Of a DNA stretch of 64,000 nt, positions 26,180-63,585 are shown one piece after another. The stretch comes from Octopus vulgaris (taxonomy: Eukaryota), in NCBI GenBank assembly GCA_951406725.2, contig OX597833.1, positions 10,168,001 to 10,232,000 on the forward strand, given 5' to 3'. A program made the position numbers and the translations under genes. Each line of letters starts with the position of its first letter. The first letter of the stretch is position 1. Below the pieces are notes generated by a model. It did not search any database. It had not been told where the DNA came from and saw only the letters and a program-made list of their open reading frames with translations.

Positions 26180-26383
26180 GTGAATCCAAACAAAGAAGAA
26201 CAAGCATGAAAATACAACAACGCGAGGACGTGGTACAAGTAATGTACCTCAGGAAAGACGCTCAGGAAAGGAAAGAAAGAGGATTCAACGTTTCGAGCGG
26301 AGCTCTTCATCAGAAATATAGAAAAGTCCAAAGAAGGGAAGGCGGAGAAAGAAAATCGCCAACGACACACACGCGGTCACATA
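26178..26383 (-). mobile_element. H1 element with canonical hammerhead core
   Basis: auuu CUGAUGA a gagc ucc gcuc GAAACGUU gaau at 26283-26317. Confidence 0.78.
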
Positions 26384-35358: not shown

Positions 35359-35931
35359 TAATAAATAAAATATATGCATACATACAAACATATATGTACG
35401 TACCTACATCTACATGTATATATACATGCATATATAAATATATATACACGTGAGTACAGGACACCACAACTAGACGTAGAACTCAACGAGAAACGAAAAC
35501 GGAAAAACCATTTTTTTACAACAGAAAAAACAGAGTACAGGACATACTACACAAGGAAAAATCCCCTTCATCAGCTGTCACTAGTTCGACTCCAGCGTGT
35601 TTCGAAGGCTTCCCAGAACAGATCAGAGTGCAGAACGGGCAATCGAGTGCCTTCAAGATCTTTATGATGTTTGTAACAAGAAGGAGAAACTTCAGCTTTG
35701 ATTTATTTTATCCAACAAAACGTTAATTTTTGTTATGCTTAAAAATTTGCCAACATTCAACAACCCTTTTTCTTATACAGTTATTTACAATTGCAATTAA
35801 ACCTATAAAGTTTTAAATATGTATTGTTTTTAGATTTTGCATGTTATCGAATGCTTGTAGTGGCCTCTGTCTTAAAATAGCTCAGTTTTGAACCTTTGCA
35901 GAGAGCAATTTCAATTCATTTTTGGAATTAC

Positions 35932-36220
35932 GGAGATGTACTTGCATAGCGAGTGACTTGATCTGAGATCGTGTGCTGGAACGAAAACAATTGCAGCGTG
36001 GAAGGTGTTTATAAGCCATTTAAGAAACACACAAAAACCGTTCGATTCACTTCAACATTTAAGTTTAATTTGTCAAAATATTTTCGTCGCTTTGAGACCG
36101 CGACCTGTTCACTGACAAAACTTTGAAAATATTTTGACAAATTAAATTTAAATGTTGAAGTGAATCTAACGGTTTTGTGTGTTTCTTAAATGGTTTATAA
36201 ACACCTTCCACGCTGCAATT
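35932..36220. mobile_element. Tail+arm-spacer-arm fold-back element
   Basis: Arms ~35989-36085 and ~36125-36220 are inverted. Confidence 0.8.
36069..36119 (-). ncRNA. Hammerhead variant with G3-C8 swapped core
   Basis: UUUGUCA GUGAACA g GUCGC ggucucaaa GCGAC GAAA AUAU U U UGACAAA. Confidence 0.7.
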
Positions 36221-36643
36221 AATTTCAATTCAGGAATCTTTAAAATGTATAAATTCACTTTCATTTTATATCTCTCTTGTGTTTACAAGGATTTAGGCAG
36301 CGGAAATACTGAAAGGTGAAACTAGTACCACCTAGTGATCATAGTTTTAAAAGCCTATAACTCCGTAACTATTTTAACTAGAAAGCTGAAATTTCAGATA
36401 TACTATTTCTGCATTGCATTGAGTCAGCACACCAAGTTTGGTAAAAACTTGAGCAGGCGTTATGAATCCCCACTCCCAAGAATTTTGCATGATTTGGGTA
36501 AAAAGTGGTGATCGATTTCTTAAGTTGGGGGTGACGATTTCTTTCAAATAAAGCGAAATAGATGTTAGTTTCCTGACTTTTATGAAACTATTCATCGAAT
36601 TACAGTACAGGGTTATTAGATTGTGAAAAAGGTCATAACCCTA

Positions 36644-56389: not shown

Positions 56390-57177
56390 ACCTATTTCTT
56401 TACTACCCACAAGGGGCTAAACACAGAGGGGACAAACAAGGACAGACAAAAGGATTAAGTCGATTACATCGACCCCAGTGCGTAAATGGTACTTAATTTA
56501 TCGACCCCGAAAGGATGAAAGGCAAAGTCGACCTCGGCGGAATTTGAACTTAGAACGCAGCAGCAGACGAAATGCCTATTTCTTTACTACCCACAAGGGG
56601 CTAAACGTAGGGGGGACAAACAAGGACAGACAAAGGGATTAAGTCGATTACATCGACCCCAGTGCGTAAATGGTACTTAATTTATCGACCCCGAAAGGAT
56701 GAAAGGCAAAGTCGACCTCGGCGGAATTTGAACTCAGAACGCAGCAGCAGACGAAATACCTATTTCTTTACTACCCACAAGGGGCTAAACGTAGGGGGGA
56801 CAAACAAGGACAGACAAACGGATTAAGTCGATTATATCGACTCCAGTGCGTAACTGGTACTTAATTTATCGACCCCGAAAGGATGAAAGGCAAAGTCGAC
56901 CTCGGCGGAATTTGAACTTAGAACGCAGCAGCAGACGAAATACCTATTTCTTTACTACCCACAAGGGGCTAAACGTAGGGGGGACAAACAAGGACAGACA
57001 AACGGATTAAGTCGATTACATCGACCCCCAGTGCGTAACTGGTACTTAATTTATCGACCCCGAAAGGATGAAAGGCAAAGTCGACCTCGGCGGAATTTGA
57101 ACTCAGAACGTAGCGGCAGACGAAATACCGCTAAGCATTTCGTCCAATGTGCTAACGATTCTGCCAGCTCGCCGCCT
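56390..57177 (-). mobile_element. SINE A tetramer (head plus four 184-bp units)
   Basis: cctatttc at 56391, 56575, 56759 and 56943. Confidence 0.9.
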
Positions 57178-62840: not shown

Positions 62841-63585
62841 TTAACGTGCGAGTGGTTGAGCAGCACTCCACAGACATGTGTACCCTTAACGTAGTTCTCG
62901 GGGGAGATTCAGCGTGACACAGAGTGTGACAAGGTTGGCCCTTTGAAATACAGGTACAACAGAAATATGAAGAAAGAGGGGGAGAAAGTTGTGGCGAAAG
63001 AGTAGAGCAGGGTTCACCACCACACCCTGCCGGAGCCTCATGGGTCTTTTTAGGTGTTTTCGCTCAATAAACACTGACAACACGGAAGGTGGCGAGCTGG
63101 CAGAACCGTTAGCACGCCGGGAGAAATACTTAGCAGTATTTCGTCTGCCGTTACGTTCTGAGTTCAAATTCCGCCGAGGTCGACTTTGCCTTTCATCCTT
63201 CTGGGGTCGATAAATTAAGTACCAGTTACGCACTGGGGTCGATGTAATCGACTTAATCCGTTTGTCTGTCCTTGTTTGTCCCCTCTGTGTTTAGACCCCT
63301 TGTGGGTAGTAAAGAAATAGGTATTTAGTCTGCCGTTACGTTCTGAGTTCAAATTCCGCCGAGGTCGACTTTGCCCTTCATCCTTTCGGGGTCGATAAAT
63401 TAAGTACCAGTTACGCACTGGGGTCGATGTAATCGACTTAATCCCTTTGTCTGTCCTTGTTTGTCACCTCTATGTTTATCCCCTTGTGGGCAGTAAAGAA
63501 ATATAAACACTGACAACGCCCGATCTGGAAATTGAAACCGCGATCCTACGAACGCGAGTCCGCTGCCCTAACCACTGGACCATTG
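62841..63585 (-). mobile_element. SINE C1 with tail E, interrupted by a SINE A dimer
   Basis: C sequence resumes after 63503. Confidence 0.82.
63089..63503 (+). mobile_element. SINE A dimer with 15-bp target-site duplication
   Basis: ataaacactgacaac at 63067-63081 and 63503-63517. Confidence 0.88.

What the first reader, a model, noticed from the sequence alone, without database searches (positions are those of the whole stretch)
36069..36119. Hammerhead with the C3-G8 pair flipped to G3-C8
Minus strand reads UUUGUCA-GUGAACA-g-GUCGC-loop-GCGAC-GAAA-AUAU-U-U-UGACAAA. It has a perfect 7-bp stem I, a 5-bp stem II and a palindromic AAUAUU stem III, but the core is GUGAACA instead of CUGANGA. C3 and G8 form a Watson-Crick pair in the active hammerhead, so a double change to G3/C8 is the expected compensatory swap. 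Standard CUGA-based searches would miss it.
Basis: partly seen in the sequence, partly recalled or inferred. Interest (0 to 1): 0.8.

Follow-up and report, generated by a model that had tools for sequence, protein, structure and literature searches.

The report
Swapped-core hammerhead in Penelope-like retroelement
A 51-base motif in the terminal repeat of a high-copy Penelope-type jumping gene has the layout of a small self-cutting hammerhead RNA with two paired core letters swapped (G3-C8 for the usual C3-G8), and sister families in the same genome keep the pair as C-G or U-A, so it is likely a working natural variant, though cutting has not been shown.

Summary
Confirmed. [quoted passage not shown] The window holds a short head-to-head insertion of its terminal repeat. 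Full-length parents with an RT plus GIY-YIG ORF carry the same motif (L287 at both ends). The core pattern has 8,744 genome matches, and 94 of the first 100 are G3-C8. Three sister PLE families (46-58% protein identity) hold the homologous motif with C3-G8 (two families) or U3-A8 (one), plus compensated stem pairs, while the linker behind it has decayed to chance similarity. So the swap is a real natural covariation. Engineered C3G/G8C is reported to rescue cleavage only partly.

Against activity: the triplet is UUU and stem III is weak. A G3-U17 wobble is predicted to extend stem I. At least 148 matches carry G8, nearly all as an unpaired G3/G8. The youngest sister family has A9C. Copy 5' ends do not pile up at the cut site.

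I found no natural G3-C8 in the papers I could search, but three key papers were not held. This scan noted G3-C8 candidates before on other DNA (protist PLEs, a phage; unchecked). Verdict: new variant of a known kind; cleavage about 55% likely.

The parts
36069..36119 (-). Minimal type I hammerhead motif with G3-C8 core
   Evidence: homology
36106..36112 (-). Core box, positions 3-9 (G3 = 36112, C8 = 36107)
   Evidence: family state
36086..36104 (-). Stem II (5 bp) and loop II; the loop differs between subfamilies, the stem does not
   Evidence: pair probability 0.99
36076..36085 (-). GAAA box, palindromic stem III (AAUAUU) and U17; predicted cut between 36076 and 36075
   Evidence: cut site inferred from hammerhead numbering
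35927..36124 (-). Sense arm of the insertion: pLTR with hammerhead, linker, ORF start and tail
36125..36220 (+). Inverted 5'-truncated second copy (from GAAA to the short 3' end), forming the hairpin
35927..36019 (-). First ~31 codons of the PLE ORF (ATG at 36019); continues into the full ORF in parents L287, L288
35927..35987 (-). ~60-nt tail between the two preferred 3' ends (about 35988 and 35927)
36221..36232 (.). Left copy of 12-nt target-site-duplication-like repeat
   Evidence: D12
35907..35918 (.). Right copy of 12-nt target-site-duplication-like repeat
   Evidence: D12

Best explanation
The motif is the pLTR hammerhead of a Penelope-like retroelement family in which the 3-8 core pair is fixed as G3-C8, and it likely still cuts its RNA weakly after U17. 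Shown: position in the pLTR 57 nt before the ORF start, fixation across subfamilies, and C-G / U-A / G-C states in sister families. Inferred: selection kept the 3-8 pair because the active fold needs it. Two copies in a tandem transcript would pair through the palindromic stem III, probably helped by the element's own protein, as reported for the anole PLE. Cutting would process tandem transcripts but is not needed for most insertions. The window copy was likely made by target-primed reverse transcription of uncut RNA from two internal start sites, giving the short and long arms head to head.
For: Parent L287 has the unit at 820-1027 and 5081-5282 around an ORF. The 1,025-aa frame of L294 has GIY-YIG at E 1.8e-5, a weak RVT_1 match (E 0.076) and Atlas neighbours with RT/GIY-YIG families at 0.96. 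In a 13-row alignment of four families, pair 3-8 is CG 6, GC 4, UA 3, all paired; 94.6% of cells pair against 18-46% in slid controls. Stem II pairs also change on both sides (GC/AU, CG/UA). The linker behind the motif is at shuffled-level identity between A and B, C, D (0.33-0.41 vs 0.31-0.42). Subfamily changes fall in loop II and flanks, none in core or stem II. No variant of 5% or more at positions 3 or 8 was listed in contigs of four organism labels. PMC11167929 reports that C3G/G8C partly restores cleavage of a PLE hammerhead and that cleavage needs protein.
Against: No cleavage data. The monomer is predicted to extend stem I by G3-U17 (P 0.67), like the inhibitory C3-G17 trap (PMC3884650). 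The stem III duplex is -0.2 kcal/mol. The triplet is UUU, and the extra base is G where the published consensus has H. 148 matches carry G8, 95 of the first 100 as G3/G8, some in both arms of one insertion. Family C, with intact ORFs, has C9 as the commonest core (63 of 74 segments), so cores can drift in mobile elements. About 11 of 100 listed 5'-shortened matches begin at the cut site against 6-8 at neighbouring positions (hand count). Four families give only two or three independent changes at 3-8, and rows are related, so the shuffle counts are not probabilities.
Confidence: 0.58

Rival explanations
1. A true hammerhead descendant that no longer cuts usefully. The fold is kept as a protein-binding or folding element, or merely decays slowly, and G3-C8 arose by drift.
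For: A9C in family C; G3/G8 copies inserted or amplified; no 5'-end pile-up at the cut site; predicted G3-U17 trap; hammerhead mutants do not affect insertion of the anole PLE in vitro (PMC11167929).
Against: Two transversions landing on exactly 3 and 8 and restoring a pair, with U4, G5, A6, A9, G10.1-C11.1, GAAA and U16.1 unchanged while the linker is randomised, is what selection on the active-state pair predicts. A natural A9U hammerhead is reported to cut (PMC10085705).
Confidence: 0.3
2. G3 was fixed for a second, overlapping signal (stem I plus G3 reads as a pyrimidine tract plus CAG, a splice-acceptor-like site, or as an initiator-like TCAGT), and C8 followed to save the ribozyme.
For: The sequence shows UUUUGUCAG at 36120-36112. 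PMC4209133 reports an intron end at helix I of the Drosophila virilis Penelope hammerhead.
Against: A stronger acceptor-like site with a branch-point-like motif lies about 22 nt upstream in the parents, and short copies start there. No joint at G3 was listed (37 joints not shown).
Confidence: 0.1
3. A chance fold at the centre of a foldback or MITE-like DNA element.
For: The motif sits at the centre of a ~95-bp inverted repeat whose arm includes GAAA and the 3' half of stem I.
Against: Arms are unequal and their junction varies between copies. Single-arm copies exist. Parents are retroelements. Sister families hold canonical cores at the same place. 0 of 150 resampled windows match.
Confidence: 0.02

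Closest known systems
Minimal type I hammerheads of metazoan Penelope-like elements (Cervera and de la Pena 2014, PMC4209133)
   Same: In the pLTR; type I; extra base between 9 and 10.1; G10.1-C11.1; palindromic stem III; thousands of solo copies; U3-A8 families known
   Different: Core pair is G3-C8; extra base is G, not H; stem I is longer (7 bp); UUU triplet
Natural U3-A8 hammerheads (Perreault et al. 2011, PMC3088659)
   Same: Compensated 3-8 pair in nature
   Different: U3-A8 is reachable by transitions through a wobble; G3-C8 needs two transversions from either C-G or U-A
Engineered C3G/G8C hammerheads, including the anole Poseidon (PAc) hammerhead (PMC11167929; review PMC8495972)
   Same: Same swap; PAc has similar geometry (cut site 85-92 nt before the first RT start; here about 88 nt to the short end)
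   Different: Laboratory mutants with partial rescue, not a fixed natural state; PAc's ORF starts inside the hammerhead, here 57 nt behind it
C-terminal EN+ PLE clades (Craig et al. 2021, PMC8557442)
   Same: RT then GIY-YIG, pLTRs, inverted 5' copy, tail, (TA)n targets
   Different: CCHH present by eye (unlike Hydra); EN C-terminal (unlike Naiad); DKS motif; tail about 60 nt rather than 30-40; clade not placed against reference sequences

Membership tests
PLE minimal type I hammerhead | Stems I and II around the core in type I order | tested here: met
   7 and 5 bp; pair probabilities 0.94 and 0.99, kept in the 207-nt parent context
PLE minimal type I hammerhead | CUGANGA box, literally | tested here: not met
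   GUGAACA; this is the variant
PLE minimal type I hammerhead | Watson-Crick pair between 3 and 8 | tested here: met
   G-C; 13 of 13 rows paired in three forms
PLE minimal type I hammerhead | U4 G5 A6, A9, GAAA, U16.1, H17 | tested here: met
   H17 = U
PLE minimal type I hammerhead | Extra base between 9 and 10.1; G10.1-C11.1 | tested here: met
   present; extra base is G where the consensus has H
PLE minimal type I hammerhead | Palindromic stem III for dimer folding | tested here: met
   AAUAUU; duplex only -0.2 kcal/mol
PLE minimal type I hammerhead | Located in pLTRs of a PLE | tested here: met
   L287 both ends; L294 3' end; L291/L367 and L368 5' end
Hammerhead ribozyme (functional) | Site-specific self-cleavage after H17 | not testable with these tools
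   only contigs available; indirect 5'-end test shows no clear pile-up
Penelope-like element, EN+ | Single ORF with RT and C-terminal GIY-YIG | tested here: met
   RT Pfam match is weak
Penelope-like element, EN+ | pLTRs, inverted 5' copy, optional tail, AT-rich targets | tested here: met
   (targets and duplications judged by eye)
Named PLE clade (Nematis, Neptune, Hydra, Naiad) | Phylogenetic placement with reference proteins | not tested
   only two Neptune-like proteins of this genome used as outgroups
Non-LTR retrozyme | Head-to-tail tandem monomers, each with a hammerhead | tested here: not met
   copies are dispersed, single or head-to-head; the one 221-bp spaced pair is split by (TA)-rich DNA
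MITE / foldback DNA transposon | Equal terminal inverted repeats with fixed ends, transposase parent | tested here: not met

The most novel reading that the evidence does not exclude
A natural, active G3-C8 hammerhead. One PLE clade in one genome has sampled three Watson-Crick forms of the catalytic-state pair (C-G, U-A, G-C), with U17 replacing C17 to avoid a G3-C17 trap and the element's protein chaperoning the fold. Together with the scan's unchecked protist and phage candidates, this points to a class of hammerheads invisible to CUGA/UUGA descriptors and Rfam.
Probability: 0.4. Interest if true: 0.68.

Novelty: new variant of a known kind. Interest (0 to 1): 0.52.

Why it matters
The 3-8 pair forms only in the active hammerhead fold. 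Natural support so far, in the papers I could read, is U3-A8; G3-C8 is a partly rescuing laboratory mutant. A family fixed for G3-C8, with canonical and U3-A8 sisters as built-in controls, gives natural three-way covariation for that pair. It says descriptors should allow any pair there. It also offers a matched set (G-C, C-G, U-A, A9C, G3/G8) for the open question of whether PLE hammerheads need to cut at all.

Tried and rejected
Rfam: no hammerhead match in the 401-nt region; whole-window list dominated by microsatellite/miRNA noise, 210 of 360 rows not shown.

Neptune-like PLEs found by GIY-YIG search are not the parent; they carry U3-A8 motifs of their own. L035's upstream DNA is not shared with other copies.

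Covariation within family A: 26 double changes among 8,744; 2 are not family A; 11 of the other 24 are Watson-Crick against about 8.7 expected from the margins (hand count), so no enrichment.

G3/G8 as ancestral intermediate: G8 is only 3 of the first 100 of 1,187 matches in the oldest subfamily, and linkage with an outgroup-like linker state is 6/15 vs 5/28, p 0.15; not supported. C17-to-U17 as specific compensation for G3: weakened, since family C (C3-G8) also has U17 in 54 of 74 segments.

5' ends at the cut site: 344 matches genome-wide to a shortened-copy pattern; 2 of 15 true ends in 30 loci lie exactly at the site. The first tally (part 2) had an indexing bug and was redone.

Expression: no RNA holder listed; contigs cannot show ends. 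Metagenome scan with a G3-C8 pattern: 64 loci, 2 pass loose stems, neither with a short stem III; treated as chance.

Pfam found nothing in the family C protein; no PDB relative of the family A protein. Tree root: outgroups at 16-39% identity, so polarity is not shown. No complex or fold prediction was run.

Full report
Observation. A descriptor allowing any Watson-Crick pair at 3/8 finds only this site in the window with both stems at 4 bp or more, and none in 150 resampled windows. A looser version with wobbles adds one canonical motif near 26313. Rfam gives no hammerhead among 18 matches at E<=10 in 35900-36300.

Surroundings. The motif is the centre of an element at about 35927-36220: an inverted arm (36220-36125), a sense arm, and a 12-nt direct repeat on both flanks. 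The genome (2.8 Gb, 227 contigs; from recall of its repeats probably an octopus, not tested) gave 2,319 first-look candidates, 40 scored. In 30 aligned copies the inversion junction varies, there are two preferred 3' ends about 60 nt apart, and targets are AT-rich or (TA)n, with duplications seen by eye. PMC8557442 (passages, section 11, supplement search) and PMC11167929 (parts 1-2 of 4) describe these as PLE hallmarks.

Fixation. A core pattern leaving positions 3, 7 and 8 free has 8,744 matches (reverse control 1); of the first 100 listed, 96 have G3, 98 have C8, 94 both. Only 26 matches change both, without enrichment for pairs. The oldest subfamily (1,187 matches; mean pairwise distance 0.10-0.11 against 0.07 for two younger ones) is 86 of the first 100 G3-C8. 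Subfamily differences fall in loop II (5 columns) and flanks, with one wobble-compatible change in stem I and none in core or stem II. Contigs of four runs under four organism labels list no variant of 5% or more at 3 or 8.

Parent and sisters. One double-change hit (L123) led to family B, with CUGAAGA in the same frame of stems; B units lie downstream of decayed RT + GIY-YIG ORFs. B's RT led to family C with intact 1,310-1,312-aa frames. C's N-terminus led to family D (UUGAAAA, U3-A8) and to the parents of the window's family A. L287 has the A unit at both ends of its ORF; L294 has a 1,025-aa open frame with GIY-YIG, a weak RVT_1 match, similarity to a Neptune-like RT (E 6e-10) and RT/GIY-YIG neighbours in the Atlas. 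The tail is the start of the ORF, as in PAc. A and C proteins are 55% identical over 815 residues. In a tree of 21 copies each family is one group, and A lies outside B, C and D, but the root rests on distant outgroups. That C3-G8 is ancestral is therefore inference from its general prevalence.

Covariation. Segments anchored only on stems show pair 3-8 as G-C in 99 of 122 A segments (a set that includes 20 loci chosen for double changes, and some overlapping loci), C-G in 31 of 38 B and 71 of 74 C, and U-A in 10 of 12 D. On 13 chosen rows (4 A, 3 each of B, C, D) 94.6% of cells pair, against 18-46% when slid; 5 of 10 pairs change on both sides, a count that 51 of 500 shuffles reach, while cells paired and covariation score exceed all 500. 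Rows are related and D's stem I is misaligned by its shorter loop, so this is two or three evolutionary events at 3-8, not thirteen. The linker between motif and ATG is at shuffled-level identity between A and the others, so the motif's conservation is not mere recency.

Mechanism. Shown: identity, position and fixation. From papers: C3-G8 forms in the active fold (PMC3884650, passages); G8C lowers the rate 100,000-fold and C3G partly restores it (PMC8495972, passage); in the anole PLE the double mutant partly restores cleavage, cleavage needs the protein, mutants do not affect insertion, and no RNA-seq ends were found at the cut site; minimal PLE hammerheads cut weakly and as dimers (PMC4209133, parts 1-2 of 4; PMC6765202, passages). 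Inferred: the G3-C8 motif cuts weakly as a dimer or with protein. Most copies come from uncut RNA, since they keep the whole motif and start sharply at (G)AGATG, where parents have a branch-point-like and acceptor-like sequence. 11 of 17 non-parent starts with AG have a G before it, which parents lack (one duplicate removed); a cap-derived G at a transcription start is my guess.

Against. Predicted G3-U17 extension of stem I (P 0.67) and a -0.2 kcal/mol stem III; UUU triplet; extra base G versus consensus H; 148 matches with G8, 95 of the first 100 listed G3/G8, about 25 of them a cluster on one contig, two loci with G8 in both arms; C9 in 63 of 74 family C cores, though a natural A9U is reported active (PMC10085705, passages); no clear excess of 5' ends at the cut site.

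In print. Searches found natural U3-A8 (PMC3088659, section 8 and passages; PMC4209133) and engineered G3-C8 only. PMC6155905 passages had nothing on it. Of bioRxiv 2026.07.22.740005 I read part 1 of 5. Lunse et al. 2017, Przybilski and Hammann 2007 and Hammann et al. 2012 were not held, one supplement file of PMC4209133 was not searched, and figure-only data are invisible, so an earlier report is possible. Earlier notes of this scan list G3-C8 candidates in protist PLEs (with a further inserted base) and a phage; I did not check them. None exists for this genome.

Verdict. A real, family-fixed natural G3-C8 hammerhead variant in a PLE, with in-genome controls; new variant of a known kind; cleavage unproven (about 55%). 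Interest 0.52.

Noticed in passing
window about 26283-26317, minus strand: A second, canonical minimal hammerhead-like motif (CUGAUGA, 4-bp stem II, ACGU palindrome), probably from another PLE family.
   Followed up: no
L243, L244, L245 (family C pLTRs): A young PLE family with intact 1,310-1,312-aa frames has A9 replaced by C in its hammerhead core; older copies (L240, L323) keep A9.
   Followed up: partly
L067, L072, L091-L093: A Neptune-like PLE (781-aa frame) carries a U3-A8 hammerhead-like motif near its 3' end, with a TATA-like box and donor-like site upstream.
   Followed up: partly
L287:790-825, L291, L371: Branch-point-like ACTAAC, pyrimidine tract and YAG directly before the start of the short copies; short copies often add a G not present in the parent.
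   Followed up: partly
G000:C16:4840119-9249383: About 25 identical G3/G8 core matches cluster in 4.4 Mb of one contig, suggesting local amplification.
   Followed up: no
L098, L055, L135: Local tandem repeats of 30-64 nt made of parts of the hammerhead region inside single insertions, suggesting RT slippage at the stems.
   Followed up: no
L136: One family A copy has C3-G8 in its sense arm while its inverted pieces keep the G3-C8 form.
   Followed up: no
window 1952-2413, 13026-13400, 56390-57129, 63136-63503: Tandem copies of a 184-bp SINE-like repeat.
   Followed up: no
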